From NCBI RefSeq assembly GCF_051903065.1, contig NZ_CP178438.1: a stretch of DNA of 64,000 bases. One strand, 5' to 3'. This document shows positions 1,351 to 26,785 of the stretch, in pieces. This DNA is from Escherichia coli (GTDB lineage Bacteria; Pseudomonadota; Gammaproteobacteria; Enterobacterales; Enterobacteriaceae). The notes beneath the pieces were generated by a model, which saw only the letters and a list, made by a program, of their open reading frames with translations, did no database searches and was not told where the DNA came from. Made by a program: the position numbers and the translations under genes. Positions within the stretch are counted from its first letter, which is position 1; every line of letters starts with the position of its first letter.

Positions 1351-1371
1351 GCCTCCTGCGGTATGAAGTGG

Positions 1372-1973
<602 letters not shown>

Positions 1974-2004
1974 GACAAATGAGCCCATTGGAATAAGTTA
2001 GAAA

Positions 2005-2760
2005 CTACATATCTGCCAACAACATCCCAGCCATACCATCCAGTCGCTTCTTAACCTTTTCCCAGCCCGGCATAACCTGCCCCATCAGACGGTAAAACTC
2101 CTCGCTGTGGTTGTGCTCAGCCACATGGCATAACTCATGTAGCAAAACATAATCGATACATTCTGAGGATGCCTTAACCAGCCATGGATTCAGGGTCAGA
2201 CAGCCTTTTGCTGAACAGTTGCCCCATTGCGTTTGCATCGCCCGCAGACGTATCGGAGGACGCTCACTGACCCAAAGGGTCTGCGGAATCAGTAAATCAA
2301 GCCTGCGCTGAAAAACATCTCTGGCACGTTCCCGATACCATTCAGCCAGCAAGGCTTTAATCTTTTCTGCCGATTTGTGTCTGACAGTCACTTCCAGACG
2401 CCCACGCAACATTTTCACTCGTTGCGGCACAGTAGCGTCTTCTGTCACTTTCAACTGATATTGCTTACCGAGATAATAATGGCTTTCTCCGCTGACATAC
2501 TGACGCGGAACAATGTGTATCTGTTGCTCCCTGAAATCACGCAGTTGCTGGTATATCCAGCGCCCACGTTTTTTCAGCGCAGACAATACCTCGTGCTCCG
2601 GTGTTTCAGGCGGTACAGAGGCCACAACCCGGCAGTCCGGATAAACCTTAATGAGCACCCTGCCCTTTACGACCTGACGCGGAACACACTGTACGACGAT
2701 GACCTCATCACCATAGACAATGCGTAACGCTTTCATTGATGGCGATTCTTTTTCACTCAT
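2005..2760 (-). CDS. HExxH metal-dependent hydrolase (DUF45/YgjP/SprT-like), last gene of the R-M operon
   Basis: HELCHVAEHNH motif; 4-bp overlap with hsdR stop. Confidence 0.65.
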   Translation of the reverse strand: MSEKESPSMKALRIVYGDEVIVVQCVPRQVVKGRVLIKVYPDCRVVASVPPETPEHEVLSALKKRGRWIYQQLRDFREQQIHIVPRQYVSGESHYYLGKQYQLKVTEDATVPQRVKMLRGRLEVTVRHKSAEKIKALLAEWYRERARDVFQRRLDLLIPQTLWVSERPPIRLRAMQTQWGNCSAKGCLTLNPWLVKASSECIDYVLLHELCHVAEHNHSEEFYRLMGQVMPGWEKVKKRLDGMAGMLLADM

Positions 2761-5700: not shown

Positions 5701-6044
5701 TCGACAAACTCCGTGACGGCGATACCGTAGAGCAGATGGTTATACATCCGCTCATTGGCTTTGAGCAGCCCTTCATTCAGCGCCGGAGAACAGACCTGTG
5801 ATATCAGGTTATCCAGTGCTTTTTCCGATAACTGGCAGGTTTTGCCACCCGCCATAAAGGAACGCTTCGACAGCTCTTCACGCAGAACCGGACGCAGCAC
5901 CACCTCATCCTGTTTATAGCCCCGGTAATCCATAATCTGTTTCGGAGATAAAAACGCCCAGCCGAGGCTGGTCAGTAACGTCAGTGCCGGAATTTTGGCG
6001 CTGTATTCTTCCTGGAATTTTGGCGTGTACGTCTGGTTCATCAT
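2757..6044 (-). CDS. hsdR: Type I restriction enzyme R subunit
   Basis: 1095-aa ORF with helicase motifs (GSGKS Walker A, DEGH box). Confidence 0.9.
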   Translation of the reverse strand: MMNQTYTPKFQEEYSAKIPALTLLTSLGWAFLSPKQIMDYRGYKQDEVVLRPVLREELSKRSFMAGGKTCQLSEKALDNLISQVCSPALNEGLLKANERMYNHLLYGIAVTEFVDGKKVNPTIALIDWEHPENNQFHFTEEFTVLRSGGVETRRPDIVCFVNGIPLAVIEAKSPAGHGKKGPTIDEGISQSIRNQFNDEIPQLFVYSQLLLSINGHDGRYGTCHTPMKFWAAWREEDITDAQMYALRNHPLSTEQIDALFEHRPVGDLNWYQQLIAGGELAVSGQDKLLISLLSPERLLEMTRFFTLFDKKTGKIVARYQQVFGIKRLLERISTRRPDGGREGGVIWHTTGSGKSYTMVFLSKALILHDSLKRCRIVVVTDRIDLEEQLSSTFASGGELAGKKDKANAMATSGQMLAKQIGSGKERIIFTLIQKFNSATKLPECVNTSPDIIVLIDEGHRSQGGENHVRMKLALPNAAFVAFTGTPLLKEDKTTNKFGPIVHAYTMQRAVEDKAVTPLLYEERIPDLEVNDRAIDAWFDRITDGLSEAQKADLKRKYARKGEVYSADDRIRLIALDIATHFSKNIDEGLKGQLACDSKISAIKYKKYLDEAGLFESAVVISPPDTREGNTEVDESKLPEVTKWWKDNVGTQDESVYTRNIISRFDTDEKLKLLIVVDKLLTGFDEPKNTVLYIDKPLKSHNLIQAIARVNRLHPLKKFGLLIDYRGILAELDTTIGKYQDLASRTQGGYDIKDIDGLYSAMSSEYKRLPHLYNQLWAIFAGVKNKNDTEQLRAVLVPKMEERDGEMVDIHQKTRDDFFEALTAFAGCLKVALQSATFFTDKSFTEQDRNLYKETVKQMSSLRQWAMQVSGEQVNYDDYAEQVKKLLDKHVTGVEVREPDGVYEVGKMGKSEKPEEWDNNKTRNETDIIKTRVTKMIEQELRDDPYAQEAFSRLLRMAIEEAEKLFDHPLKQYLLFREFEEQVEARKLSDIPDALAVNKHAQAYYGVFKKELPEVFVVKDVQVQDKWTKLAFEVDSIIVRAVAENSLNPQDIEKVVKTSLLPLLFTACREIGAGMNQVNRIVETIIQILRVGLMKS

Positions 6045-6093
6045 TAATCCTTTTCTTTCTGGCGCTACTCGCTACTGGTCACATGAAGATTCA

Positions 6094-6777
6094 TCAATGC
6101 AGACAGCACCTCTTAAATTTTTTACCGCTGCCACACGGACACGGGTCATTTCGCCCGGGCATGTTTTCTGCCCCCTTCACTGGAACAGGCCGGGATGATG
6201 CCTCTGACATTCTCACTGACAACCAGTACTGATAAAGTGCCAGTGCAGCAGGCTGAATAAGGGAAATACTTTTCTCAAACTGCTCTCCGGTCATTTTCTC
6301 AAGTACAGGAAAATTCTTCTCCACGCCATGAAGAGCGATCACTTCCAGAGAAGGCCGTAACTCACCGGGAAGACCAGACCAGTCATCCAGTGACTTTCCT
6401 TTCATATAACCAAAACACCACTCTTCCACAATGGTATATTTTTCCCCCTTTACCTCACGCTCATTGAAAATCGGTTCAAACTGTTCAGGGGCCTCATACA
6501 GGCAGCCAGCGATATCGTTCATATGCTGAAAACACAGCCCCACAAAACGCGTCATCTCTTTTTCGGTGGTCCAGCGAGGGTGGTAATCACCTCGCCCCCA
6601 GATAGCACTGAGCCAGGTATTAGGGGAAATCGTATTCGGGCCAGAGACAATCGCTGTCAGAAAGCCATCCAGCTCAGAGAAACAGAGCACAGAATCATCA
6701 TTGCCGTATTTCAGCAACACCTCTTCCAGCCAGTCGATTTCCCGGTCAATCAGCGGCCCGCTTTTCGTCAGTTTCAT
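6094..6777 (-). CDS. YecA-like UPF0149 protein with C-terminal SEC-C zinc motif, embedded between hsdS and hsdR
   Basis: 227 aa; C-terminal GRNDPCPCGSGKKFKRCC; start ATG overlaps hsdS stop (ATGA). Confidence 0.8.
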   Translation of the reverse strand: MKLTKSGPLIDREIDWLEEVLLKYGNDDSVLCFSELDGFLTAIVSGPNTISPNTWLSAIWGRGDYHPRWTTEKEMTRFVGLCFQHMNDIAGCLYEAPEQFEPIFNEREVKGEKYTIVEEWCFGYMKGKSLDDWSGLPGELRPSLEVIALHGVEKNFPVLEKMTGEQFEKSISLIQPAALALYQYWLSVRMSEASSRPVPVKGAENMPGRNDPCPCGSGKKFKRCCLH

Positions 6778-8012
6778 TCGGCAACCGCCTCATCGACCTT
6801 AACACGACGTTTGCCAGTCAGTAGCTGTTGCATCAGGGCTTTTTTCTCATCTCTCAGGCAGGCGAGTTTTTTCTCCAGCGTGGAGATTTCGGCATCGGCG
6901 ACGGACAGGACGGCGGCGATTTTTTGTTGTTCTCTTATACTGGGTAAGTCTAGTTCAAACTCTTTAACCATTCCGGCGTTTAGGTTGGACTGTGTACCTT
7001 GCTGGCCTTGTAGTTTTATTTTTTCTTTTAATGATGTAAGATAGAAATATAAAAACTCATAATTTAAACAATCTTTTGGTCTAATACCCAAGATTGCCTG
7101 CGAAGATGTTAAATTTACAGCAGCAATGCTGCATTCACCTATAGAAGCATACATAGCATAAAGAACCGAGTTTTTTGGATATATTCTTGCGGATGAACTG
7201 TTCAATCCTAATTCAGTCAGATATTTTTCAGTTGTAGCAATCCACTTTCCATTAGATGTCATATCAGAAATAGATACCCATGGGATATTCCCGCCATAAT
7301 ACTCTTCAACCGTTGATTTCGGAGTACCTCCACTGTTCATATCGGCTATCGCACCCAGTTTTACTCTCTTCCACTCCCCACTAAACCTCACCCCATTCTC
7401 ATCCAGCAAGCGTTTCTTCCCGGTAAGTAATTGCTGCATCAGGGCTTTTTTCTGCTGCTGACTATTGGCGAGCAGCTTTTCCGTCACTGAAATCGCGTTA
7501 TCCCAGGTTGACAAGATTTTGGCTATTTTCTTTTGTTCCGCCAGTGGGGGGAGTAATACAGGAAAACCGCAAACATCATCACGTGTAATATTAGGGTCTT
7601 TACGACTACTTGCCGCAAATTTCTTCCATAATTTTACATTCCCGTTTAAGTAATTCAGGATATATGCTGGTTCTGCTTTATCACGATCGAGTATAAGACC
7701 GGATAATGCTTGGTTTATTGCTGCCGGTATAGTGAGAAGTCCAGTTCTTCCGATCTGGTTAAAGCCTCCATACATCGCTACTAAAACAGTACCAACAGGA
7801 AATACAGAGCAAGATGTTTCTAAAAGGGCTGTGTCAGTAATTTTCTCATCAGTTGAGATAATTTCACCGTTATTTAGGTCTAATGTCTTTACCCATGGAG
7901 TACCAGCAGTAGAAAAATAACGCTCTCCCTCAGCCCTCAGCGGAGTAGATCCAGATTTAATTTTTGCTATGTCCGATAATTTGACATGTCTCCAGCCAGG
8001 TTTGAGCTTCAT
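6774..8012 (-). CDS. hsdS: Type I R-M specificity subunit
   Basis: Two target-recognition domains with repeated conserved spacer motif KKALMQQLLTGK(K/R)R. Confidence 0.85.
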   Translation of the reverse strand: MKLKPGWRHVKLSDIAKIKSGSTPLRAEGERYFSTAGTPWVKTLDLNNGEIISTDEKITDTALLETSCSVFPVGTVLVAMYGGFNQIGRTGLLTIPAAINQALSGLILDRDKAEPAYILNYLNGNVKLWKKFAASSRKDPNITRDDVCGFPVLLPPLAEQKKIAKILSTWDNAISVTEKLLANSQQQKKALMQQLLTGKKRLLDENGVRFSGEWKRVKLGAIADMNSGGTPKSTVEEYYGGNIPWVSISDMTSNGKWIATTEKYLTELGLNSSSARIYPKNSVLYAMYASIGECSIAAVNLTSSQAILGIRPKDCLNYEFLYFYLTSLKEKIKLQGQQGTQSNLNAGMVKEFELDLPSIREQQKIAAVLSVADAEISTLEKKLACLRDEKKALMQQLLTGKRRVKVDEAVAE

Positions 8013-9565
8013 AAGCTATCCTCTTGCATACTGAAGTTTTCTCTTTCACCATAACCCAACTCCTTCAGATAACCCGCCATCTCTGTTTCGAGTTTTGACA
8101 GTTCCACTTTCAATTGCTCACGTTCGGCACGCACAGCCAGCAAGTCAATCTCGTCTTCTTCCTCAAAGGTATCGACATAGCGCGGAATATTGAGGTTGTA
8201 ATCGTTGTCCTGAATTTCCTTCAGGCTGGCGAGATAGGCGTATTTCTCGACGTTATCGCCATCACGGTAGGTCTTGACGATTTTCTTAATGTTTTCTTCG
8301 CTAAGCTGGTTCTGGTTTTTACCTGCCTTGAATTCACGGCTGGCATCGATAAACAGCACCTTATCATCAACTTTCTGCTTTTTGAAAATCAGAATCGCAG
8401 CCGGAATCCCCGTACCGTAGAACAGTTTTTCCGGCAGACCAATTACCGCATCCAGCAAATTTTCGTCGATCAGTTTCTGGCGAATTTTACCTTCGCTGGA
8501 GCCACGGAAAAGCACACCGTGTGGCACAACTACGCCCATACGGCCAGTTCCCGGTTTCAGGGTTTCGATCATATGCGAGATAAAAGCGTAATCTCCTTTA
8601 GTCTTCGGCGGTACACCGCGACGAAAACGGCCAAACTTATCGTTCTCAGCCTCGTCATGGCCCCACTTATCCAGGCTGAACGGTGGGTTAGCGGTCACGA
8701 TATCAAACAGCATCAGGTCGCCATTTTTATCGAGCAGTTTCGGGTTACGAATGGTATCGCCCCACTCGATTTTATGGTTGTCTTCGCCGTGCAGGAACAT
8801 GTTCATTTTCGCCAGCGACCACGTGGAGCCAATCGCTTCCTGACCAAACAACGCATAATTACGGCTGTTATGTCCGGAGACAATTTTACGTCCGCACTTC
8901 ATCAATAACGAACCAGAGCCGCAGGCCGGATCGCAGATGGTATCACCCGGTTGCGGATCAAGCAGTTCAGCAATCAGGTCTGAAACTTCTGGTGGGGTAT
9001 AGAATTCCCCGGCTTTCTGCCCACCGCTGGCGGCAAAGTTTTTGATCAGATATTCGTAGGCATTACCGATAACGTCCAGCGTACCTACACGGCTTGGCTT
9101 CAGGTTGAGATCTTCACCGGCGAAGTCTTCCAGCAACTGACGCAGGATGGTGTTCTTCTGTTTTTCTTCACCCAAGCGGTCAGTGTTAAACGAAATATCC
9201 TGGAACACGCTTTTCCCGGCATCTTTCAGTTTGGTTCCGTTGGCTTCTTCGATTGCATGCAGAGCCTGATCGATACGCTCACCGTTACCCGGCTCATGGC
9301 GGCGTTCGTACAGCGCATAAAAGCTGGCACTTTTTGGCAGTACAAAACGCTCGTTGGCCATCATCGCTTCAATCAGTTCCGGCGCATCGCCATACTGTTC
9401 TTTGTATTCGTCATAGTGATCCTGCCAGACATCTGAAATGTACTTGAGGAACAGCATGGTAAGGATAAAGTCTTTATAGGTATCAGCACTGATGGTGCCA
9501 CGGAACGTATCACACGCGGCCCACAGGGCTTTGTTGATCGTGTCCTGACTGATTTTGTCGTTCAT
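8009..9565 (-). CDS. hsdM: Type I R-M N6-adenine DNA methyltransferase
   Basis: 518 aa; NPPF catalytic motif; AdoMet-binding DPACGSG; 4-bp overlap with hsdS. Confidence 0.9.
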   Translation of the reverse strand: MNDKISQDTINKALWAACDTFRGTISADTYKDFILTMLFLKYISDVWQDHYDEYKEQYGDAPELIEAMMANERFVLPKSASFYALYERRHEPGNGERIDQALHAIEEANGTKLKDAGKSVFQDISFNTDRLGEEKQKNTILRQLLEDFAGEDLNLKPSRVGTLDVIGNAYEYLIKNFAASGGQKAGEFYTPPEVSDLIAELLDPQPGDTICDPACGSGSLLMKCGRKIVSGHNSRNYALFGQEAIGSTWSLAKMNMFLHGEDNHKIEWGDTIRNPKLLDKNGDLMLFDIVTANPPFSLDKWGHDEAENDKFGRFRRGVPPKTKGDYAFISHMIETLKPGTGRMGVVVPHGVLFRGSSEGKIRQKLIDENLLDAVIGLPEKLFYGTGIPAAILIFKKQKVDDKVLFIDASREFKAGKNQNQLSEENIKKIVKTYRDGDNVEKYAYLASLKEIQDNDYNLNIPRYVDTFEEEDEIDLLAVRAEREQLKVELSKLETEMAGYLKELGYGERENFSMQEDSL

Positions 9566-14419: not shown

Positions 14420-15476
14420 GGCTTTGTTGAATAAATCGAACTTTTGCTGAGTTGAAGGATCAGATCACGTATCTTCCCGACAACGCAGACCGTTCCGTGG
14501 CAAAGCAAAAGTTCAAAATCACCAACTGGCCCACCTACAATAAAGCCCTCATCAACCGTGGCTCCATAACTTTCTGGCTGGATGATGAAGCTATTCAGGC
14601 CTGGTATGAGTCAGCAACACCTTCTTCACGAGGCAGACCTCAGCGCTATTCTGACCTTGCCATCACGACTGTGCTGGTCATTAAACGCGTATTCAGGCTG
14701 ACCCTGCGCGCTGCGCAGGGCTTTATTGATTCCATTTTTTCTCTGATGAACGTTCCGCTACGCTGCCCGGATTACAGCTGTGTCAGCAGGCGGGCAAAGT
14801 CGGTTAATGTCAGTTTCAAAACGCCCACCCGGGGTGAAATCGCACACCTGGTAATTGATTCCACCGGGCTGAAGGTCTTCGGTGAAGGCGAGTGGAAAGT
14901 CAAAAAGCATGGCCAGGAACGCCGCCGTATCTGGCGTAAGCTGCATCTCGCCGTTGACAGTAAAACACATGAAATCATCTGCGCTGACCTGTCGCTGAAC
15001 AACGTTACGGACTCAGAGGCCTTCCCCGGGTTAATCCGGCAAACCCACCGGAAAATCAGGTCAGCCGCCGCCGATGGCGCTTACGATACCCGGCTATGTC
15101 ACGATGAACTGCGGCGTAAGAAAATCAGCGCGCTTATCCCTCCCCGAAAAGGTGCGGGTTACTGGCCCGGTGAATATGCAGACCGTAACCGTGCAGTGGC
15201 TAATCAGCGAATGACCGGGAGTAATGCGCGGTGGAAATGGACAACAGATTACAACCGTCGCTCGATAGCGGAAACGGCGATGTACCGGGTAAAACAGCTG
15301 TTCGGGGGTTCACTGACACTGCGTGACTACGATGGTCAGGTTGCAGAGGCTATGGCCCTGGTACGAGCGCTGAACAAAATGACGAAAGCAGGTATGCCTG
15401 AAAGCGTGCGTATTGCCTGAAAACACAACCCGCTACGGGGGAGACTTACCCGAAATCTGATTTATTCAACAAAGCC
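14420..15476 (+). mobile_element. IS903-like element (IS5 family), 1057 bp with terminal inverted repeats
   Basis: Terminal IRs ggctttgttgaataaatcg / cagatttattcaacaaagcc; transposase ORF; 9-bp flanking duplications. Confidence 0.85.
14452..15420 (+). CDS. IS5-family (IS903 group) DDE transposase
   Basis: ORF inside the IS; N-terminus QKFKITNWPTYNKALINRGSITFWLD; true start may be internal. Confidence 0.85.
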   Translation: MKDQITYLPDNADRSVAKQKFKITNWPTYNKALINRGSITFWLDDEAIQAWYESATPSSRGRPQRYSDLAITTVLVIKRVFRLTLRAAQGFIDSIFSLMNVPLRCPDYSCVSRRAKSVNVSFKTPTRGEIAHLVIDSTGLKVFGEGEWKVKKHGQERRRIWRKLHLAVDSKTHEIICADLSLNNVTDSEAFPGLIRQTHRKIRSAAADGAYDTRLCHDELRRKKISALIPPRKGAGYWPGEYADRNRAVANQRMTGSNARWKWTTDYNRRSIAETAMYRVKQLFGGSLTLRDYDGQVAEAMALVRALNKMTKAGMPESVRIA

Positions 15477-16065
15477 GCAGCAAACACAGCTGTAGACAAC
15501 GATGAAAAATATCTGTCCTTTGCATTAGTTCTCGCTATCACGATTATGGACAACTTAGTAAAGCTCATCGGCACAGATGGCTTCGTACTTTATACCTACA
15601 CCCTGCAGGACACGGCTACTGCTCGTGCTGTTTTTAATGAATTAGCCAGGCGTCTCAAAAATTTCAATCGTCAGGAGGAGGTCTACACCACCGATTCCCT
15701 CACCTTTCGAATGAAATACATTTACGGTGTTACCCTGTTCGAACATGATAGTAAATCTATCCTTAACCTCTTTGATAAGAAGGGTTATCCGGTATTGAGT
15801 GAATCAGGAGAACCCGGTTCTCTTGATGATATGTATCTTGACATTCAAGCCCGATTACATGGCGGCTACGCCTCAAAAAAGTTTCTTCATTTACATGAAC
15901 ATTGTCTGTTATCTGCACACGTTACCCCGTCTGTGGAAAAGACGCAACGCGGTATCCTGATTAAAGTAGGCAGGAAACTCGTTTCCTTTATCCATGTAGA
16001 TGATGAATCACACAAAACCGATATTTTCAAATCTGTAGTAAATGTTATTAAATCTTGATTCTTTA

Positions 16066-16093
16066 TGCCGGGACACAGCTCCCGGCATTTTTT
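16066..16093 (+). terminator. Hairpin plus T-tract just upstream of the piPolB start
   Basis: tgccggga-cacagc-tcccggca followed by tttttt. Confidence 0.5.
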
Positions 16094-16104
16094 CGGAGTT
16101 AACT

Positions 16105-18705
16105 ATGAGCAATAATTTGCAGGACATCCTCGCTGCCGCCTCGGGGTATCAGTCCGTGACTTCAGAGCCAGCGTTCAATCGTAAAAGACCTAAAACGCTT
16201 GATGATTATCCTGTGATACCACCTGCATCAAAAAAAGTATCTGTTATTTCAAGTGACCTGACACTCCATATCGGTTTTGATACCGAATATGTTTTCAACC
16301 CTGAAACACGACAGAATGATATTCTGTCATATCAGAGTTATGTTGTCTTACCCGATAATACAGGTATATCGAACATTATCTATCCACCTGACTCACAGAA
16401 AAAATCCCGGCTGTCTTTTAAGGAATTTCTCTGTCAAACGATTACACCGCTTCTTGAAACGGGTGTGATTACAAAATGGCCCGGTATTATTAATATATAT
16501 GCGCATTTCATTCGTGCGGATATCGCCTCCTTTGCCAATTTCTGGTCAGACTACAAAATTCTTCTGAAAGGAATACGCGGTACTGTCAGCAGCTTCAAAA
16601 ATCGTTACGGTATCGATTTTGATGAACAGCAGGAACGTCGCGTAAAGACTGAACAGATAATGTTTGACAAACGAACTTCCCCTCCGCGTTGCAGTAACGT
16701 AGCTTTCATCGATACACTGCTTATCACTCCCGGGGGTATGGGTCTGGCTGAATGTGGTGAATTACTGGGTCTTCCCAAACTCACCATTCCTGCACCTTAT
16801 TCCATAACCAATATGCGTGAATATCTTCTGGGCGACAGAGCAGGGTTTGAAGCCTATGCTCTGCGGGATGCCGAGATTGCGGTTCGTTATGCTTTACAGG
16901 TTCGCAATTTTTGCGCCCGGGAGCTGATGATTGATCGTGTCCCCGCCACCATCGGGGCGATGGCAGTTTCACGGTTCACCAAAACACTTAAAGAAAACAA
17001 TATGTCTCCTGAAGTCTGCCTTGGGACACACATTAAAACCCGTGAACTCTGGCTCACGGAGAAACAGGCATTCCGGACGATTAAAAACCCCGCCAGTGTT
17101 CCTTCAAGAGAGTTGTTTGAAACGTTCCCGATCAACTGTTACCACGGCGGACGCAATGAGTGTTTTATGATGGGGGTTACACCGTCTGATCACTGGTATG
17201 ACTACGATCTGGCTGGAGCGTATACCACCGGGCTATTAGATATCCTCACACCCGATTACGGGAACATCCGCCTCAGTAAAAATCCGGACGATTACTGTGG
17301 GCATGTAATGGGATTTGCGCTTGTCACATTTCGGTTCCCGGAATCAGTTCCCTATCCCAGCCTGCCGGTTCGGACCGATCAATATGGGTTATTCTTTCCA
17401 TTAAGTGGCGAATCATGGGCAACGGCACCTGAAATCGAACTTGCTCTGTCGCTCGGGGCAGAGATGACGATCCATAATGGGATCATCGTCCCCTGGATCT
17501 GTGACACCTCCCCACATAACAGCGAATCAACATCGGTGTTTCTTCCCTTTGTTCAACAGGTCCGTGAGAACCGTAATCGCCATATTAAAGGTTCTCTGGA
17601 GGAGAAATTCTGGAAAGAAATTGGCAACTCGCTTTATGGCAAACTTGCTCAGGGCCTTCGCGCCAAAACCGCCTTTGATACTGCCCGTGGATTAAACAGA
17701 TCCCTCCCACCATCATCGGTTACTCAGCCATTCTTTGCTGCGCATGTGACGGGATTTATCCGCGCCGTTGTCGGGGAACTCATGAATGCTTTGCCTTCTG
17801 ATTCATCGGTTGTCAGCGTCACAACCGATGGTTTTTTGACAAATTGCCCACTTGACAAGATAAACATGAGCGGTCCACTGTCTTCCCGCTTCCAGTCGCT
17901 GTGCGATATTGTTGATCCGGGTTCATCAATGTTGACATGTAAGCATGAGGTCAGCCAGCTTATCGCCATGAAAACCCGGGGGCAGTTAACCTATAGAGCT
18001 ATTCAGGGAAAACCTGTTGTTCATGCCAGGGCTGGCGTCAAACCTCCTGCCGATATTCCACGCAGTGACTATAACGACTATATGGTAGATCTTTACCTTA
18101 ATCGTTTACCCGGTCAGACGTTATCCCGAAGTACGTTGATATCAACGCGTGAGATGTGGCTCTCGGAAAGCGATCTGGTATCCCGGGAACAGGATATCCG
18201 TCTTAATCTGGAATTCGATTTCAAACGCCAGCCCGTACAGCCCGCCATGAATGAAGGGCATTTACTGATGTTTTCCCGCCCGTGGGATAATATGGAAGAG
18301 GCTCTGCAGCAACGCTCTCTTTTCGACGACTGGCGGCAAACGCATACACTGAAGACCCTGGCTGACTGGGATGACTGGTGTGATTTTCTCTATTGCCGGA
18401 CGGTGTTTTCTGATATGAAACTAAAAGTCGGAAGCAAACGTAGTGATGATATTTTAGTCAGACTATTTCTCCGGGCGCTGACTCAGTGCCAATGGGGGCT
18501 GATGCTGAAAGATAAAAAAAGTTATTCCTGTAAAGAGGTTGCTGAATGGCTGACGTCAGAAGGCTATTCAGTAACGGTGACTGATGTAAAAAATGCGGTA
18601 AGAGCAAAAATACCCCAAATGAAATTTAGTTCTGTAACACCGCGAATGAAGTCACTGATGGATATCATAGCCCGTAAATATCCGACATTCTGTCTTCCAG
18701 TCTGA
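16105..18705 (+). CDS. Family-B DNA polymerase of the primer-independent (piPolB) type
   Basis: Exo I FDTEY, Exo III YALRD, motif B NSLYGKL, motif C VTTDG, and KTRG in place of KxY; start taken at MSNNLQ after GGAG. Confidence 0.8.
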   Translation: MSNNLQDILAAASGYQSVTSEPAFNRKRPKTLDDYPVIPPASKKVSVISSDLTLHIGFDTEYVFNPETRQNDILSYQSYVVLPDNTGISNIIYPPDSQKKSRLSFKEFLCQTITPLLETGVITKWPGIINIYAHFIRADIASFANFWSDYKILLKGIRGTVSSFKNRYGIDFDEQQERRVKTEQIMFDKRTSPPRCSNVAFIDTLLITPGGMGLAECGELLGLPKLTIPAPYSITNMREYLLGDRAGFEAYALRDAEIAVRYALQVRNFCARELMIDRVPATIGAMAVSRFTKTLKENNMSPEVCLGTHIKTRELWLTEKQAFRTIKNPASVPSRELFETFPINCYHGGRNECFMMGVTPSDHWYDYDLAGAYTTGLLDILTPDYGNIRLSKNPDDYCGHVMGFALVTFRFPESVPYPSLPVRTDQYGLFFPLSGESWATAPEIELALSLGAEMTIHNGIIVPWICDTSPHNSESTSVFLPFVQQVRENRNRHIKGSLEEKFWKEIGNSLYGKLAQGLRAKTAFDTARGLNRSLPPSSVTQPFFAAHVTGFIRAVVGELMNALPSDSSVVSVTTDGFLTNCPLDKINMSGPLSSRFQSLCDIVDPGSSMLTCKHEVSQLIAMKTRGQLTYRAIQGKPVVHARAGVKPPADIPRSDYNDYMVDLYLNRLPGQTLSRSTLISTREMWLSESDLVSREQDIRLNLEFDFKRQPVQPAMNEGHLLMFSRPWDNMEEALQQRSLFDDWRQTHTLKTLADWDDWCDFLYCRTVFSDMKLKVGSKRSDDILVRLFLRALTQCQWGLMLKDKKSYSCKEVAEWLTSEGYSVTVTDVKNAVRAKIPQMKFSSVTPRMKSLMDIIARKYPTFCLPV

Positions 18706-19459: not shown

Positions 19460-20362
19460 ATGGGTAAGCACGATAAACTTGGATATCGACTCGGATTGAT
19501 ATTAACTCGCCTGAACAATGGTGAGTCACTAGCCGTCCGGGAGTTATCTGAGGAATTTAACGTTTGCGAAAAAACTATCCGTCGCGATCTTACTCAGCGC
19601 CTGTCCTATCTTAATCTGATTCGACAAAATGGTCGCTATCGCCTGTCTGACGGTGTTCTCGGTCAACGCAGCAATGCTGATTTACGTCATTTCACGCGCA
19701 TCCTGGGTATTGAAGGGCTGTTCCCTCGCTGGGATGACAGACTACTGAGTATTTTGTTAGGTAACACGAAAAATAACCCGTTTCTGATAAAACAACGTCC
19801 ATACGAAAACTGCGGATCATTCATGTCAATTCTGAATGTATTATCCGATGCCATCCTGTCACAGAAGAAAGTAAATTTTAATTACAAAGATAAAGAGTTT
19901 CGGGCTGTTGAGCCATACAGACTGGTTAATGACAACGGATTGTGGTATCTCGCTGCCGCCCATGACAGTACATTAAAAAGCTTTGTTATCTCATCTGTCA
20001 AAGACGTTTGCATGAGTAATATCTCTTTCAGGATAATCCCCGAAATTAATGAAAAAATAGAAAAGACAGATGGTATCTGGTATAGCGAAGACCTTATCGA
20101 AGTTCTCATTTCAGTTTCCGCACATGTTGCTCCGTGGTTTACCCACCGTCATCTATTGCCAGGACAGGAAATAATTCATACTTCCCGGTCTGGCGATTTA
20201 CTGGTGATATCACGTGTAACACACACAGATCAGATAATGCCTTTAATGAAATACTGGATACCGGATGTCGAAGTAATACAACCGGCCTCAATCCGTCAAC
20301 AACTTGCTGAAGATATACAATCCGCACTGAAACGTTACACCCAGCCAAGTAACGCCCCGTAA
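19460..20362 (+). CDS. WYL-domain transcriptional regulator (HTH-WYL-WCX; YafY/BrxR/CapW-like)
   Basis: N-terminal HTH ([21 protein letters not shown]), central GLWYL signature. Confidence 0.75.
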
Positions 20363-21372: not shown

Positions 21373-21648
21373 GTGGCTTCTGTTTCTATCAGCTGTCCCT
21401 CCTGTTCAGCTACTGAAGGCGTGGTGCGTAACGGTAAAAGTACTGCCGGACATCAGCGCTATCTCTGCTCTCACTGCCGTAAAACATGGCAACTGCAGTT
21501 CACTTACACCGCTTCTCAACCCGGTACGCACCAGAAAATCATTGATATGGCCATGAATGGCGTTGGATGCCGGGCAACCGCCCGCATTATGAGCGTTGGC
21601 CTCAACACGATTTTCCGCCATTTAAAAAACTCAGGCCGCAGTCGGTAA
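21373..21648 (+). CDS. insA: IS1 InsA
   Basis: 91-aa ORF. Confidence 0.85.
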
Positions 21649-22070
21649 CCTCGCGCATACAGCCGGGCAGTGACGTCATCGTCTGCGCGGAAATGGACGA
21701 ACAGTGGGGCTATGTCGGGGCTAAATCGCGCCAGCGCTGGCTGTTTTACGCGTATGACAGGCTCCGGAAGACGGTTGTTGCGCACGTATTCGGTGAACGC
21801 ACTATGGCGACGCTGGGGCGTCTTATGAGCCTGCTGTCACCCTTTGACGTGGTGATATGGATGACGGATGGCTGGCCGCTGTATGAATCCCGCCTGAAGG
21901 GAAAGCTGCACGTAATCAGCAAGCGATATACGCAGCGAATTGAGCGGCATAACCTGAATCTGAGGCAGCACCTGGCACGGCTGGGACGGAAGTCGCTGTC
22001 GTTCTCAAAATCGGTGGAGCTGCATGACAAAGTCATCGGGCATTATCTGAACATAAAACACTATCAATAA
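21567..22070 (+). CDS. insB: IS1 InsB reading frame (expressed as InsAB' by -1 frameshift)
   Basis: 167-aa ORF overlapping insA. Confidence 0.8.
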
Positions 22071-22100
22071 GTTGGAGTCATTACCTTGATATGGATTCGA

Positions 22101-22328
22101 TTAAAAATTTCGTCTAACTCGTTCCCTTATCAAACTTGCCAGCCTTACCCTTCCAGGTGAAATAGTTTCCGTTACAGTTTCAACTCTCAACAAATCACGC
22201 TGTCCGGTTCGGCGACTGACCGCGAAACGCTGACATATATCATTAACCGATACCGTATTACCGGTATACAGTTGAAGTAATATCCAGCACAGCCTTTCTG
22301 CGATCCTTTCACCGCGAGTTTTATACAT
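22101..22328 (-). CDS. Small HTH DNA-binding protein (75 aa)
   Basis: HTH-like VSVNDICQRFAVSRRTGQRDL; GAAGG RBS. Confidence 0.45.
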   Translation of the reverse strand: MYKTRGERIAERLCWILLQLYTGNTVSVNDICQRFAVSRRTGQRDLLRVETVTETISPGRVRLASLIRERVRRNF

Positions 22329-22629: not shown

Positions 22630-23064
22630 TCAACAACTTTCCACAGTTACCGTTACCCGGTAAATCCCCATAGAGAGATACTCCATAAAATTACGCTCCC
22701 ACAGGGACCAGAGTTCATTCCTCTCTGCTGCCAGTGAAATATCCCCAATCAGATAATGGAATACATAATTCCCCGACCAGCAAAAATCAATTTCTTTTTC
22801 CAGCTCAGGGTAGACACGCCCCATATAACTAAAATCTGTGACATAATCAAAATACCATTCATTATTCTTACGGATAAACCGTATTTCAACGGGATGAAAG
22901 CCCCCGGATTCTGCACTGTAGTCCGGATCACGGAAATTAATAACCACTGCCTCAGTTATTTTTTGTAAAACCTGATTTGCCAGAAGAGTAGTAATATGCT
23001 GCTGAAATTCTTTAGTAACAGGCAGAGTTAATCCTGCCTGTTTTAAGGCATATTGGGTTTGCAT
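22630..23064 (-). CDS. Hypothetical protein, possibly DUF2787-like
   Basis: 144 aa; NFRDPDYSAESGGFHPVEI recalled as DUF2787-like; RBS present. Confidence 0.45.
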   Translation of the reverse strand: MQTQYALKQAGLTLPVTKEFQQHITTLLANQVLQKITEAVVINFRDPDYSAESGGFHPVEIRFIRKNNEWYFDYVTDFSYMGRVYPELEKEIDFCWSGNYVFHYLIGDISLAAERNELWSLWERNFMEYLSMGIYRVTVTVESC

Positions 23065-23136: not shown

Positions 23137-23670
23137 TTAATCCTCTGTAATCTTTTCCTGGCTACTGATCGTATTAAGTTTATTCAACCGCTCCCTCCAG
23201 TCCGGGTATAATACATGAGTAAATAACTTCTCTGGATGTGCCTCCAGCAGACATATATCCGGGGAGCGTAAAACAGCAGCCAGAAAACCTGCATTGTTGG
23301 CGCTTGCCCCTTTGAATAGCGGCCTGAATACTCCGGATGAGAAGCCGGTAGCAGGTTGTGTTTCCAGAACGGTTGCAATCTTTGAAAGTGAGATCCAGTC
23401 CTTAGAGAACAACCCTCCACAGCCATTTGCCACCAGACGAAGATAAAGTTCATTGTCCACCTCTGATATCGCCAGTTGCCATGTCAGCATACCACTTGCC
23501 TTAGGACTGATTTTTTCTGCCTGGCCTGTTTCAATGAGCAACTGATAGTCTTTTACATCAGATAATGTTTGTTCATCTGCACTGAGATTTTCATGAATAA
23601 CCTCTGCCTCATTTTTAATCTCCTTCGAAACTGACTCAACATTATTTTTAACTAATTTTGATTTACTCAT
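23137..23670 (-). CDS. Hypothetical protein (177 aa)
   Basis: ORF with RBS. Confidence 0.45.
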   Translation of the reverse strand: MSKSKLVKNNVESVSKEIKNEAEVIHENLSADEQTLSDVKDYQLLIETGQAEKISPKASGMLTWQLAISEVDNELYLRLVANGCGGLFSKDWISLSKIATVLETQPATGFSSGVFRPLFKGASANNAGFLAAVLRSPDICLLEAHPEKLFTHVLYPDWRERLNKLNTISSQEKITED

Positions 23671-23695
23671 TTTGCGTTCCTGGTTTTGCTTGTGT

Positions 23696-24067
23696 TTAAT
23701 AGCGTGATTCGGCCATAGAAATTAATAAATCAATACCCTTCAGAGGGCAATCGGGGTGAAATAACAGATAAATACCGTTCCCGTTATCTTCCGTAACAGA
23801 AAGCATCAGGTAATAGTCATCTGTCAGACGGACTACAAATTCTGGATTTGCAATTAACTGATGAATCACATTTAATACCTGCGCTTTAATATCTTCAGGT
23901 ACATCATCGGGCTCGACATATATTAATGTCACCCCGACTTCATCCCAGAAACTCATTGCAGAGTATTCATCTTCAAATGGGAGTACCAGCTCTGTTTTCA
24001 ACAGACTCATTACTGACTCCGGAAGAGATAGTGATGGCAGACTTTGCCAGTTAGCGATAAACTTCAT
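23696..24067 (-). CDS. Hypothetical protein (123 aa)
   Basis: ORF with AAGGAT RBS. Confidence 0.45.
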   Translation of the reverse strand: MKFIANWQSLPSLSLPESVMSLLKTELVLPFEDEYSAMSFWDEVGVTLIYVEPDDVPEDIKAQVLNVIHQLIANPEFVVRLTDDYYLMLSVTEDNGNGIYLLFHPDCPLKGIDLLISMAESRY

Positions 24068-24163
24068 TGTTCAATCCTTATAAGTAAAAAACCCCGATAC
24101 AATTAACGTATCGGGGTTTTTATACATGCGCATAACTATTATTTACAGTTATTGGTTTTCTAT

Positions 24164-24406
24164 TTAAATTCTTTCATAATATCCACAGTCCATACAGATA
24201 AGAACTGGAGCATTATTCCTTTCACACTGTTCAAGGAATCCAAATAGTTTTTTAATAGCCTTAATAATTTCTTTCAGTATTTCAGGTAAAAACTCCAGGC
24301 TAATATACCCAGAGCGTTTATTATCGGTTATTGATGGCAGTTTTCCTGCTGAACTTATCAATGTATTACAACTGCCACACTGTGGGCATTTTAAATGCAT
24401 CCTCAT
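24164..24406 (-). CDS. Small zinc-ribbon protein (CPQCGSC ... CMDCG)
   Basis: 80 aa with two CxxC pairs. Confidence 0.45.
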   Translation of the reverse strand: MRMHLKCPQCGSCNTLISSAGKLPSITDNKRSGYISLEFLPEILKEIIKAIKKLFGFLEQCERNNAPVLICMDCGYYERI

Positions 24407-24436
24407 TCTCCATATTTATAGTTTGCTAAAAAGTAG

Positions 24437-25636
24437 TCACATCTGCTTCGTAGCCGCAGTATTCAGAAGCAGGTCAGTCACTCCCTGCCCTGTCTGACGC
24501 ATACGTTCCGGTGTTAATTTCGCGTAACGTTCTGTACTCTGAATACTGGCATGCGCCAGTTGGGCTTTAACGTCATACAGGCTGAATTGACCACTCGAAA
24601 CCAGTAAAGAGGCAACAGAATGACGTGTGGTGTGAAAACAGACTTCATTCTTGTCTATACCGCACTGTGCCAGTATTTTTTCATATGCCCATCGGGGTTC
24701 CGATATCGGTTTTCCATTATCCTTAATGGCGAACAGATACGGATTACTGCCAACTCGTGGGATAGCATCAATAATCGATAATGCGGCATCGCTTAGATAT
24801 ACCGTCCGACTGCGACCATTTTTTGTATAAGGAATGAACAGAGTACGATTGGCCCGGTCGATATGTTCATGCCTGACATTAAGCATTTCTGATTTGCGTG
24901 TACCGGTTAACAACAACATGGCTATCAATCCCCCGGCAGCTTTGTTGGGATATTGGGTAGCAGCGTCAAGAATGCGCCTGATCTCATCAGCATCAAAAAA
25001 GCGCGTCCGCTGATTATTCTCTTTCAGTAAAGGGATCTTATCGGCTTCATTCTTTTCCAGCACATCCTGTCGCAACGCATAACGCCCCATCGTTTTCAGA
25101 ATAGCAAGGGCTCTGTTACAGGTAGACGGCGCATATTGCTGCCCGTGAATACGCCCCTCCAGCATGTCAAACAGCACCTGTTGTATCTCTCTGGCCCTGA
25201 GATCGCAGTAACGTATCTTTCCCAGACGAGGTTCAATGTATTGCGTGAAACGCTGAACATCCTTATCCCAGGACTTTTTATGGCGCTTGATGAACGGAAC
25301 ATAGGTCTGGTGAAAAAACTCACTAAGCGTTGGCATCGCACGATAATTATCGCGCTCTGCCTTGGGGTCATTTCCAAGTGCAATCGCCTCCTTATGACGG
25401 CGAGCTATCTGGCGAGCTGTCCCCACATCAATTTCAGGGAATCTGCCAATACTGATACTTTTTTTGGTACCGTGGAATGTGTAGCGCAGGAGGAAACGTT
25501 TGTTACCCGTTCGACCTGAGAGACATTTGAGGCCAATAACTTCGGTATCAGATACCTCAAGCTCTGTAGATCGGGTATCTGTGTTTGCCGGAAGGGCTTT
25601 GATGGATGAATTGGTGAATCGGAAGGATTTTTGCAT
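24437..25636 (-). CDS. P4-type tyrosine integrase with N-terminal arm-binding domain
   Basis: R...HxxR...Y catalytic residues (HTTRHSVAS, TERYAKL); start at MQKSF after GAGGA. Confidence 0.85.
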   Translation of the reverse strand: MQKSFRFTNSSIKALPANTDTRSTELEVSDTEVIGLKCLSGRTGNKRFLLRYTFHGTKKSISIGRFPEIDVGTARQIARRHKEAIALGNDPKAERDNYRAMPTLSEFFHQTYVPFIKRHKKSWDKDVQRFTQYIEPRLGKIRYCDLRAREIQQVLFDMLEGRIHGQQYAPSTCNRALAILKTMGRYALRQDVLEKNEADKIPLLKENNQRTRFFDADEIRRILDAATQYPNKAAGGLIAMLLLTGTRKSEMLNVRHEHIDRANRTLFIPYTKNGRSRTVYLSDAALSIIDAIPRVGSNPYLFAIKDNGKPISEPRWAYEKILAQCGIDKNEVCFHTTRHSVASLLVSSGQFSLYDVKAQLAHASIQSTERYAKLTPERMRQTGQGVTDLLLNTAATKQM

Positions 25637-25716
25637 ATTTATCCTCATGTATCTGATTGATATCATGAAAATAATATATATCTGAAGGTGTTTTTATTAC
25701 GGGGCAGGATTGAAGA

Positions 25717-26457
25717 ATGGAAAAGCTATTAGACGCGTACAAACGGATATTGCAGGAAGTTAACGCCCAGTCATTTAACCTGAATGAGGATAAATACTCA
25801 GGCGTATTTTTACCCGTACCCTTTGAAGAATACTGGCATTCACCGGTAAAAATCATGCTGGTTGGACGTGAAACCGCAGGCTGGAATACGCTGAATGGTA
25901 AGAATACGATATCACGGGTGTTGGGACTTATACCTGACGTTACCATCGGGCAAGTGGTTGAAGAAGCTGTAGATCGTTACAGGAAACATCTTCCGGTACA
26001 AAATTATGGCACCGCCAACCTCAAATCACGTAGCCGCTTCACGCAATATCATTTCAGGCTGGCCCGGGAGCTTAATATCCCTCCTCAGGCTATCGTGTAT
26101 GCCAATCTACTGGCGTGGGATTACGACGGACTGACCCCTCTCAATCGCCCTCAAAATGAAGTGCAGGAAGTTATATTAGCCTCGCTGAAGCTGCTGGCGG
26201 TACAAATTAAACACCTTGAGCCTGATTTCATGATCTTTGCATCCGGAGCCCGGAGAACAGACTACATCATTAAACAGGTGCTTACTGAGCTGGGCGGTTA
26301 TGAGACTTCTTCAGTCATTCCGGGGAAGCTGTGGGAGTTCAAAACAGGTAATACAATCTGTTTCAGAATTGCCCATCCAAGGGCTATGCGCGGACACCAG
26401 AAGTACAGAGATGAGGTGATTGCACGAATTAAGCAACTTTGTACTAAGGGCGGCTAG
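25717..26457 (+). CDS. Hypothetical protein; weak resemblance to uracil-DNA glycosylase superfamily motifs
   Basis: 246-aa ORF; VGRETAGW and AHPRAM segments loosely resemble UDG motifs A/B. Confidence 0.4.
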   Translation: MEKLLDAYKRILQEVNAQSFNLNEDKYSGVFLPVPFEEYWHSPVKIMLVGRETAGWNTLNGKNTISRVLGLIPDVTIGQVVEEAVDRYRKHLPVQNYGTANLKSRSRFTQYHFRLARELNIPPQAIVYANLLAWDYDGLTPLNRPQNEVQEVILASLKLLAVQIKHLEPDFMIFASGARRTDYIIKQVLTELGGYETSSVIPGKLWEFKTGNTICFRIAHPRAMRGHQKYRDEVIARIKQLCTKGG

Positions 26458-26633
26458 AGCATTACAACTTGCTCAGCAGGCCCCCCTTCCCGGAAGAGTA
26501 CCGGAAAACAGGCAAAGCGGCCTGGTTCTCTATGCTGGAGGCGACACGTTCAATTCGGCATTGCCAGGCTGTAGATTGCAGCTCATTGCACCCCGTGCGC
26601 ACAGGATATGCACAGGGCGTGAATTGCATGCAC

Positions 26634-26657
26634 AAAAAAACCACCCGAAGGTGGTTT
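26634..26657 (-). terminator. Rho-independent terminator of the glyW-cysT-leuZ operon
   Basis: ccacccgaaggtgg hairpin followed by T-run on minus strand. Confidence 0.6.
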
Positions 26658-26698
26658 CACGACACTGCTTATTGCTTTGATTATTCTGATGTTTCCCA

Positions 26699-26785
26699 TG
26701 GTACCCGGAGCGGGACTTGAACCCGCACAGCGCGAACGCCGAGGGATTTTAAATCCCTTGTGTCTACCGATTCCACCATCCGGGC
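26699..26785 (-). tRNA. leuZ: tRNA-Leu (anticodon UAA)
   Basis: 87-nt match to recalled E. coli leuZ, CCA end encoded. Confidence 0.9.

What the first reader, a model, noticed from the sequence alone, without database searches (positions are those of the whole stretch)
25717..26457. Unassigned ORF between the integrase and the tRNA operon
A 246-aa ORF occupies the island edge next to leuZ. Weak resemblance to uracil-DNA glycosylase motifs would fit a polymerase-carrying element, but the motif spacing is atypical, so this is speculative.
Basis: inference. Interest (0 to 1): 0.45.

Follow-up and report, generated by a model that had tools for sequence, protein, structure and literature searches.

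The report
Divergent UDG-like gene of pipolins
The ORF is a real, strongly conserved gene for a divergent uracil-DNA-glycosylase-fold protein at the tRNA-Leu end of a known E. coli mobile element (a pipolin); the pipolin literature already calls it a 'UDG', but its substrate and biological role have never been tested.

Summary

It is not a member of UDG families 1-6. It passes no curated model, lacks the four Fe-S cysteines of family 4, and has a different motif A.

The island is a pipolin (piPolB with KTRG, IntSXT-type integrase, DUF2787, WYL, 131-bp att repeats at leuZ). Published pipolin surveys already record this gene as a 'type-4 UDG' at the right end, so the finding is largely known.

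New nuances: about 43% of E. coli carriers lack piPolB but keep the gene. Outside Enterobacterales it is not pipolin-linked; it lies in variable regions, several of them holding defence genes, often with an unknown acidic 109-aa partner. A Brig-like antiphage role is plausible but unproven.

The parts
25717..26457 (+). UDG-superfamily-fold protein gene (246 aa), the terminal gene of the pipolin at its attR side
25706..25709 (+). Shine-Dalgarno-like AGGA, 7 nt before the ATG
   Evidence: read directly from the sequence
25864..25884 (+). motif A codons G50-R-E52-T-A-G-W56, directly after beta-strand 1 (residues 46-50)
   Evidence: G50 in 92/92, E52 in 90/92, W56 in 91/92 family members; strand positions from DSSP on the model; the Pfam UDG model aligns from beta1 in relative P0249
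26104..26106 (+). N130 codon at the end of beta-strand 2; equivalent of the base-reading Asn (N82 of S. tokodaii UDG)
   Evidence: 90/92 conserved; aligned to N82 of 4zbx by hmmsearch; role of N82 as stated in PMC11078745
26365..26379 (+). motif B codons R217-I-A-H220-P221 after beta-strand 4
   Evidence: R217 in 89/92, H220 in 91/92, P221 in 90/92; H220-P221 align to the HP of 'tyHPaa' in 4zbx
25637..25716 (.). 80-bp divergent intergenic region between the integrase and the ORF; probably regulatory
   Evidence: 97.5-100% identical in eight of nine other loci checked, from E. coli, Enterobacter, Citrobacter, Franconibacter and Buttiauxella (only a partial 41-bp match at 92.7% in Shimwellia); the simple scan found no sigma-70 consensus
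26458..26623 (.). 166-bp element-specific spacer between the ORF stop codon and the att repeat
   Evidence: 93-98% conserved in nine of ten loci checked, including the tandem remnant (a partial 136-bp match at 84% in Shimwellia)
26624..26754 (.). attR: 131-bp direct repeat covering the tRNA-operon terminator and the 3' 56 nt of leuZ
   Evidence: BLAST finds two further copies in the identical reference genome: one next to yecA (attL) and one in the middle
26699..26785 (-). tRNA-Leu(taa), leuZ, the integration target
   Evidence: ARAGORN
24437..25666 (-). tyrosine integrase (Phage_integrase + Arm-DNA-bind_3); the IntSXT-type recombinase of pipolins, next to the integration site
   Evidence: Pfam; RefSeq annotation; naming after PMC11551731
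22630..24406 (-). conserved pipolin core genes: DUF2787 (22630-23064), orf177 (23137-23670), orf123 (23696-24067) and an 80-aa Zn-ribbon-like ORF (24164-24406)
   Evidence: Pfam; co-occurrence with the ORF in other enterobacterial loci
19460..20362 (+). HTH-WYL-WCX regulator, a pipolin core marker
   Evidence: Pfam; PMC11551731
16042..18705 (+). primer-independent family-B DNA polymerase (piPolB), the hallmark of the element
   Evidence: KTRG at aa 644 and KEIGNSLYG at aa 525; KTRG is the piPolB signature (PMC5695915); RefSeq annotation 'DNA polymerase type-B family protein'

Best explanation
[quoted passage not shown] Family 4 is its nearest canonical relative. It is the gene that pipolin papers call 'UDG'. 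The proposed mechanism is inferred from the conserved anatomy. The protein scans DNA and flips a pyrimidine-type base into a pocket. The pocket is built from the loop after beta1 (G50-x-E52-T-x-G-W56), the Asn that ends beta2 (N130) and the His-Pro after beta4 (R217-x-x-H220-P221). E52 or a bound water, together with H220, promotes hydrolysis of the N-glycosidic bond and leaves an abasic site. For the biological role, my best guess is a stand-alone, host-beneficial accessory gene that acts on non-canonical bases (uracil or 5-substituted pyrimidines) in incoming foreign DNA, in the manner of the Brig enzymes. On this view it is not a dedicated replication or repair partner of piPolB. An ancestor of the enterobacterial pipolins probably captured it at the attR end, where it is transcribed divergently from the integrase. 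What is shown: the gene is real and under purifying selection; the fold; conservation of three active-site elements; its position inside the element; its independence from piPolB. What is inferred: catalysis, substrate and the defence role. Confidence is about 0.85 for the fold and superfamily, about 0.7 for an active glycosylase, and about 0.4 for the defence-type role. The single figure given for this explanation (0.45) refers to the whole statement, including the role.
Against: There is no biochemical or phage-challenge data for this family in the searchable literature. PADLOC does not recognise the protein. It shows no sequence similarity to Brig1, and Brig2 could not be compared. The register of motif A against canonical families is inferred, not resolved. 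The defence-context evidence has no matched control. In enterobacterial pipolins the gene occupies a fixed position in the conserved core next to the integrase, not in the variable cargo module. That fits an element-maintenance role as well as a defence role. Of seven integron UDG-like candidates tested by Getz et al., only one gave defence, so a UDG fold in a mobile element is weak evidence for immunity.
Confidence: 0.45

Rival explanations
1. It is a uracil or damaged-base repair glycosylase serving the element itself. It would remove uracil (or another lesion) from pipolin DNA during episomal replication, and the resulting abasic sites would be tolerated or processed because piPolB bypasses abasic sites. 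This is the reading implicit in the first reader's note and in the 2017 pipolin paper, which lists UDGs among replication-associated genes.
Against: About 43% of E. coli carriers lack piPolB. The gene stays intact under purifying selection in decayed, immobile islands. Relatives outside Enterobacterales have no polymerase or integrase nearby. Published UDG and piPolB phylogenies are poorly congruent, with a cophenetic correlation of 0.38. From general knowledge, E. coli already has the chromosomal uracil glycosylases Ung and Mug.
Confidence: 0.3
2. It is a catalytically inactive UDG-fold DNA-binding protein with another role. Possibilities include an accessory or directionality factor for integrase at the adjacent att site, a regulator, or a lesion sensor.
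For: The gene lies 166 bp from the att repeat and 80 bp from the integrase start, and both flanking non-coding stretches are very conserved. Motif A lacks the canonical Pro and differs from all characterised families. The protein fails every curated UDG model.
Against: Conservation is near-invariant at exactly the three positions that form the catalytic pocket in UDGs. Homologues occur without any integrase or att site. The gene is retained where the integrase is truncated. A 246-aa UDG fold is unlike known recombination directionality factors (general knowledge).
Confidence: 0.12
3. It is the toxic effector of a toxin-antitoxin or abortive-infection module. On this view the glycosylase attacks normal or host DNA and is normally restrained. 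The acidic 109-aa partner in marine relatives would be the antitoxin or inhibitor, for example a DNA mimic in the manner of Ugi.
For: A conserved acidic partner (pI about 4.5) sits directly upstream in 17 of 45 species-level loci, in several loci overlapping the start codon of the basic (pI 9.3) glycosylase-like gene. The partner has no known family.
Against: All enterobacterial copies, including the one in this window, lack the partner and are still intact and under purifying selection, so the protein is not intrinsically lethal. Nothing shows that the two proteins interact.
Confidence: 0.1

Closest known systems
The 'UDG' of E. coli pipolins (Flament-Simon et al. 2020, PMC7385651; Mateo-Caceres et al. 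2024, PMC11551731)
   Same: This is the same gene. It is described as very frequent in E. coli pipolins, located at the right end and syntenic with a XerC-like recombinase next to the Leu-tRNA attR, and it was used as a phylogenetic marker.
   Different: Those papers label it 'type-4', apparently from automated annotation. Here the defining family-4 features were tested and not met. The papers do not report the piPolB-less carriers, the non-pipolin relatives or the 109-aa partner.
Family 4 uracil-DNA glycosylases (S. tokodaii 4ZBX/4ZBY, T. maritima 1L9G, T. thermophilus 1UI0)
   Different: There is no conserved four-cysteine set for the Fe-S cluster. Motif A is G-x-E-T-x-G-W rather than G-E-A-P-G. 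The distance from motif A to the Asn is about 40 residues longer. Identity is only 13-16%. Only about 158 of 246 residues superpose. Scores fall below the curated cut-offs.
Brig1, Brig2 and Brig3 antiphage DNA glycosylases (PMC11078745; bioRxiv 10.1101/2025.10.29.685425; bioRxiv 10.64898/2026.02.25.707755)
   Same: They share the UDG-superfamily fold. They are single accessory genes in defence islands or mobile elements. Brig1's best structural match is also 4ZBY.
   Different: No sequence relationship to Brig1 is detectable (hhalign probability 0.1%). Brig1 has a GLNPG-type motif A and uses E147. Brig2 and Brig3 sequences could not be compared. No defence phenotype is known for this family.
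Family 1 UNG (E. coli Ung)
   Same: The order of elements is the same: beta1 followed by a G-x-acid loop, beta2 ending in Asn, and beta4 followed by His-Pro (from general knowledge of GQDPYH, LLLN and HPSPLS). A conserved carboxylate (E52) occupies the third position of motif A, as D64 does in Ung (D64 cited).
   Different: There is no match to any ung model. Glu replaces Asp, Thr replaces Pro, and Ala/Arg occupies the position of the Tyr that excludes 5-substituted bases. This last correspondence is inferred.
UDG-fold partners of DNA polymerases (vaccinia D4 in E9-A20-D4; N-terminal UDG-like domains of phage family-A polymerases)
   Different: There is no fusion and no evidence of interaction. 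The gene is frequently present without piPolB.

Membership tests
UDG superfamily (fold level) | alpha/beta fold with a central parallel beta-sheet that superposes on solved UDGs | tested here: met
UDG superfamily (fold level) | motif A loop starting with Gly directly after beta1, and motif B His-Pro after beta4, with an Asn ending beta2 | tested here: met
   G50, N130, H220 and P221 are each conserved in 90-92 of 92 members; N130 and H220-P221 align to N82 and HP of 4zbx; strand positions come from DSSP
UDG superfamily (fold level) | Pfam PF03167 match above the gathering score | tested here: not met
   No hit for this protein even at E<=10. 45 of 92 relatives hit at E<1, best 8.3e-7; the three examined individually (14-18 bits) are below the 24.3-bit cut-off
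UDG superfamily (fold level) | N-glycosidic bond hydrolysis on DNA | not testable with these tools
   Needs an enzyme assay; none was found in the literature
Family 4 UDG (the published label for this gene) | four conserved cysteines that bind a [4Fe-4S] cluster | tested here: not met
   Only two alignment columns carry Cys in at least 20% of 92 members (positions 133 and 215); the median is 3.5 Cys per protein and the minimum is 1. The Fe-S cluster of 4ZBY is noted in PMC11078745
Family 4 UDG (the published label for this gene) | motif A G-E-A/Q-P-G | tested here: not met
   The sequence is G-R-E-T-A-G-W and the family consensus is G-[RKQ]-E-T-x-G-W. The canonical motif is taken from general knowledge
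Family 4 UDG (the published label for this gene) | curated models TIGR00758 or NF040953 above their cut-offs | tested here: not met
   No hit for this protein. Only 5 and 8 of 92 relatives hit, at E 0.007 and 0.002
Family 1 UNG, and families 2, 3, 5 and 6 | family-specific sequence model or motif (GQDPYH, GINPG, GMNPG, GLAPA) | tested here: not met
   No NCBIfam or Pfam hit. Structural similarity is lower than to family 4
Brig1 antiphage glycosylases | sequence homology to Brig1 | tested here: not met
   hhalign probability 0.13%; BLASTP E 1.3. The Brig1 sequence was machine-read from the paper's supplement
Brig2 and Brig3 antiphage glycosylases | sequence or structure homology to Brig2 or Brig3 | not testable with these tools
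   The sequence tables are truncated or not held. No Brig entry appeared among the PDB fold hits
Pipolin (the element that carries the gene) | piPolB with a KTRG motif | tested here: met
   KTRG at aa 644 of the 16042-18705 product; the signature is defined in PMC5695915
Pipolin (the element that carries the gene) | att-like terminal direct repeats, with attR overlapping Leu-tRNA | tested here: met
   A 131-133 bp repeat lies at window 26624-26754, with two more copies in the identical reference genome. attL lies outside the window
Pipolin (the element that carries the gene) | gammaproteobacterial core: IntSXT-type integrase near att, DUF2787, WYL protein, IntP2 plus excisionase | tested here: met
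   Pfam and RefSeq annotation; the core is described in PMC11551731

The most novel reading that the evidence does not exclude
The protein founds a new, Fe-S-less clade of UDG-superfamily enzymes that work as single-gene antiphage glycosylases, excising a modified pyrimidine from invading DNA. On this reading the gene hitch-hikes at the attR end of enterobacterial pipolins and outlives them in decayed leuZ islands. In marine and Pseudomonas-type relatives it would be controlled by a previously undescribed acidic 109-aa partner acting as inhibitor, sensor or DNA mimic.
Probability: 0.3. Interest if true: 0.6.

Novelty: new variant of a known kind. Interest (0 to 1): 0.3.

Why it matters
The practical value is modest. 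The gene's existence, its position and its UDG-like nature are already in the pipolin literature. This work corrects the label: it is a UDG-superfamily protein but not family 4, and it has no Fe-S cluster. It also shows the gene is not bound to the element's polymerase. If the defence reading is right, about 10% of complete E. coli genomes would carry an unrecognised single-gene antiphage glycosylase at the leuZ hotspot, and the Brig-type mechanism would extend to a new clade with a new partner protein. If the repair reading is right, it would be the first accessory factor linked to piPolB-driven replication, in which the polymerase bypasses abasic sites. Either outcome can be tested with simple assays.

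Tried and rejected
- Single-sequence searches of the ORF against Pfam, NCBIfam, PADLOC and PDB sequences found nothing usable. The only hit, a HUIPC thioredoxin-like model at E 0.039 and 14 bits against a cut-off of 105, was rejected as noise.
- A search for the second att copy inside the window found none. attL lies left of window position 1 and was found in the identical reference genome.
- The simple promoter and terminator scan gave no sigma-70 consensus upstream and nothing above shuffle expectation.
- Brig1 membership was tested and rejected.
- The Brig2 comparison failed because the sequence tables are truncated. Searching for accessions of this family in that paper's supplements returned nothing, which is inconclusive.
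- The afdb50 fold library was unavailable.
- The broad alignment A2 was too diverse for the search for related loci, so the closer alignment A1 was used. This biases the 45 loci towards relatives with at least about 40% identity.
- The 109-aa partner gave no Pfam, PDB or PHROG match.
- The idea that the gene is phage-borne, suggested by a near-identical PHROG family of unknown function, was rejected because tblastn finds it in none of 50,697 phage genomes. Prophage mis-delimitation next to a P2-like prophage, as in locus L013, is the likely source.
- A fixed UDG-like/Mrr gene pair was considered and rejected, because the distances vary from 0.1 to 9 kb.
- Plasmid contexts were uninformative.

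Full report
**Observation.** To its left, transcribed divergently, is a tyrosine integrase (24437..25666 on the minus strand; RefSeq start 25636). To its right are tRNA-Leu(taa) at 26699-26785, tRNA-Cys and tRNA-Gly, all on the minus strand, followed by pgsA, uvrC and uvrY. The 1.1-kb stretch around the ORF is 100% identical to E. coli 23CRST027 (NZ_AP045789.1), where the ORF is annotated 'hypothetical protein' WP_089655401.1.

**The gene is real.**
- Its 90%-identity cluster has 3071 members from E. coli, Citrobacter and Enterobacter.
- Among 1.84 billion representative proteins, 221 clusters match at E<=1e-3.
- Nei-Gojobori dN/dS against three other alleles is 0.083, 0.105 and 0.147.

**What the protein is.** Searched alone, the sequence matches nothing in Pfam, NCBIfam, PADLOC or PDB sequences. 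The link to UDGs appears only through relatives.
- 45 of 92 diverse family members touch Pfam PF03167 (UDG) at E<1, the best at 8.3e-7. In one relative the match spans the whole domain, starting at the residue that aligns with the start of beta-strand 1 here.
- A profile of the family hits the solved S. tokodaii family-4 UDG 4zbx at E 2.3e-5. It aligns N130 with N82 and H220-P221 with the His-Pro of motif B. The Brig1 paper names N82 as the base-contacting Asn of that enzyme.
- An AlphaFold2 model built from 36 homologues is confident (pLDDT 89.5, pTM 0.89).
- All 47 Foldseek PDB matches at E<=1e-3 are UDG-superfamily structures: family 4, UdgX, SMUG1 and TDG.
- BFVD matches are phage UDGs and PolA fusions.

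**Active-site conservation.** In the 92-member alignment, which reaches down to 23% identity, the nearly invariant positions are G50 (92/92), E52 (90), W56 (91), N130 (90), S156 (92), P169 (92), R217 (89), H220 (91) and P221 (90). They fall where a UDG has its catalytic elements: the loop after beta1, the end of beta2, and the turn after beta4 (DSSP). I therefore regard an active glycosylase as likely (about 0.7). No assay exists in the searchable literature.

**Family membership.** The published label for this gene is 'type-4 UDG'. Family 4 is indeed the nearest canonical family by structure and the only family-specific model that any relative touches. The defining features are nevertheless not met:
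- Only two alignment columns carry Cys in at least 20% of members, so there is no four-cysteine Fe-S site.
- Motif A is G-[RKQ]-E-T-x-G-W rather than G-E-A-P-G.
- No curated model is passed.

The protein shows no detectable sequence relationship to Brig1 (hhalign probability 0.13%). Brig2 and Brig3 could not be compared. The fair description is an unnamed, Fe-S-less clade of the UDG superfamily.

**The element.** The island is a pipolin.
- The 887-aa product of 16042-18705 carries KTRG (aa 644) and KxxxNSxYG. KTRG is the signature of primer-independent PolB.
- Around it are an IntP2-type recombinase with an HTH excisionase-like gene, an HTH-WYL-WCX regulator, DUF726, DUF2787, three small orphan genes and the att-proximal integrase. 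This matches the gammaproteobacterial pipolin core described in PMC11551731.
- The att repeat is 131-133 bp (window 26624-26754). It covers the tRNA-operon terminator and the last 56 nt of leuZ.
- The ORF therefore lies inside the element as its terminal gene, 166 bp from att.
- attL is outside the window. In the reference genome the element runs from yecA to leuZ (about 37.5 kb), with Hhe, two DUF262 proteins and a type I RM system as cargo.
- That genome has a third att copy, preceded by an IS1-truncated second copy of this gene (nt 317-741, 96.9% identity). This is a tandem remnant.
- The literature already places a UDG at the right end of E. coli pipolins, syntenic with the recombinase, and uses it as a phylogenetic marker. 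The core of the finding is therefore not new.

**What is new here.**
1. The gene is more widespread than the polymerase. It is in 531 of 5426 complete E. coli genomes (520 nearly full length), whereas piPolB is in 295 by megablast and 303 by sensitive blastn. About 43% of carriers therefore lack piPolB.
2. In strain TUM2330 the leuZ island has shrunk to about 4 kb, holding an HNH endonuclease, an AAA ATPase and a truncated integrase. The ORF there is still intact, with dN/dS 0.105. In strain 99-3311 the core is deleted and a P2-like prophage abuts the gene.
3. The 45 loci from species-representative genomes fall into distinct architectures:
   - Enterobacterial copies (79-98% identity): integrase adjacent and tRNA-Leu about 245 bp downstream.
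   - Marine and Pseudomonas-type copies (44-56% identity): no integrase, piPolB or adjacent tRNA. In 17 of these loci there is instead a conserved acidic protein of 109-116 aa (pI about 4.5) directly upstream, in several loci overlapping the start codon. It has no known family.
   - Other copies stand alone.
4. Non-pipolin neighbourhoods often hold defence genes: Mrr plus type I RM in Proteus, Mrr/PDDEXK in Pectobacterium, and MADS-like genes in Marinobacter. I had no matched control, so this is descriptive only.
5. The gene is absent from 50,697 phage genomes and rare on plasmids.
6. The 80-bp region between the integrase and the ORF is 97.5-100% conserved in eight of the nine loci checked, spanning several genera. 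That is tighter than the ORF's synonymous sites and suggests a regulatory region.

**Interpretation.** I commit to a DNA glycosylase that works as an autonomous accessory gene, most plausibly on non-canonical bases in foreign DNA in the manner of Brig1, Brig2 and Brig3. I put this role at only about 0.4.

The main rival, at about 0.3, is uracil or lesion repair in support of piPolB replication. It draws on the gene's fixed place in the conserved core, on piPolB's ability to bypass abasic sites and on the recurrent pairing of UDG folds with polymerases. Against it stand the many piPolB-less carriers and the non-pipolin relatives. An inactive DNA-binding role and a toxin-antitoxin-like role are less likely.

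**Verdict.** The UDG interpretation is supported at the fold level, but not as membership of families 1-6, and not as a polymerase-linked function. The gene is already in the literature, so interest is modest. The open questions are the substrate, the role and the 109-aa partner, and all three can be tested directly.

Noticed in passing
L003 9672-10001; L005 9657-9986; L011 9672-10001; also L031, L033-L045, L047, L052 (not in the window): A conserved acidic 109-116 aa protein (pI about 4.5, no known family) is encoded directly upstream of the glycosylase-like gene in marine and Pseudomonas-type relatives, in several loci overlapping its start codon. It is absent from all enterobacterial loci.
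   Followed up: partly
L002 19714-19846 (attL), 21437-21861 (gene fragment), 22028-22158 (middle att); left of window position 1: The identical reference genome has three att copies. A tandem remnant element between yecA and the main pipolin holds an IS1-truncated second copy of the ORF (nt 317-741, 96.9% identity).
   Followed up: yes
window 25637-25716: The 80-bp divergent region between the integrase and the ORF is 97.5-100% identical in eight of nine other loci checked, spanning five genera. That is tighter than the ORF's synonymous sites, yet the simple scan finds no sigma-70 consensus there.
   Followed up: partly
window 16042-18705: The piPolB gene gets no Pfam or NCBIfam match at all, although it carries the KTRG and KxxxNSxYG motifs. 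RefSeq names it inconsistently across genomes (DNA polymerase in some, hypothetical protein in others).
   Followed up: partly
window 23137-26457: PHROGs contains near-identical 'unknown function' families for the ORF and three neighbouring core genes (phrog_29550, 32727, 32947, 28971), although no phage genome encodes the ORF. Prophage calls that overran a neighbouring pipolin are the probable cause.
   Followed up: partly
window 1-9565: The cargo module holds the 3' part of a DUF262 gene at the window start, an M48 metallopeptidase (2005-2760) and a type I RM system: hsdR 2757-6044, hsdS 6774-8012 and hsdM 8009-9565. A YecA/YgfB-family gene (6094-6777) is embedded between hsdR and hsdS.
   Followed up: no
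window 14452-15420 and 21567-22070: Frameshifted IS5-family and IS1-family transposase remnants interrupt the pipolin core. The window and NZ_AP045789.1 differ by a 1-bp indel somewhere between the end of piPolB and the integrase.
   Followed up: no
window 24164-24406 (-): An 80-aa ORF with two CxxC pairs (weak zinc-ribbon match) is conserved between the integrase and orf123 in enterobacterial pipolins. Its function is unknown.
   Followed up: no
L009 11151-12329; L027 2852-4030; L029 16299-16775; L059 3-1028; L007 10898-11809: Mrr-like (Mrr_cat/NA-iREase1) restriction genes recur near the ORF in Pectobacterium, Intestinirhabdus, Buttiauxella, Atlantibacter and Proteus, at distances from 0.1 to 9 kb. 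This is a recurrent neighbour, not a fixed pair.
   Followed up: partly
L012 17082-19018 (E. coli TUM2330): The decayed 4-kb leuZ island carries an HNH endonuclease and an AAA ATPase as its only cargo besides the ORF. This gene pair resembles a defence system.
   Followed up: no
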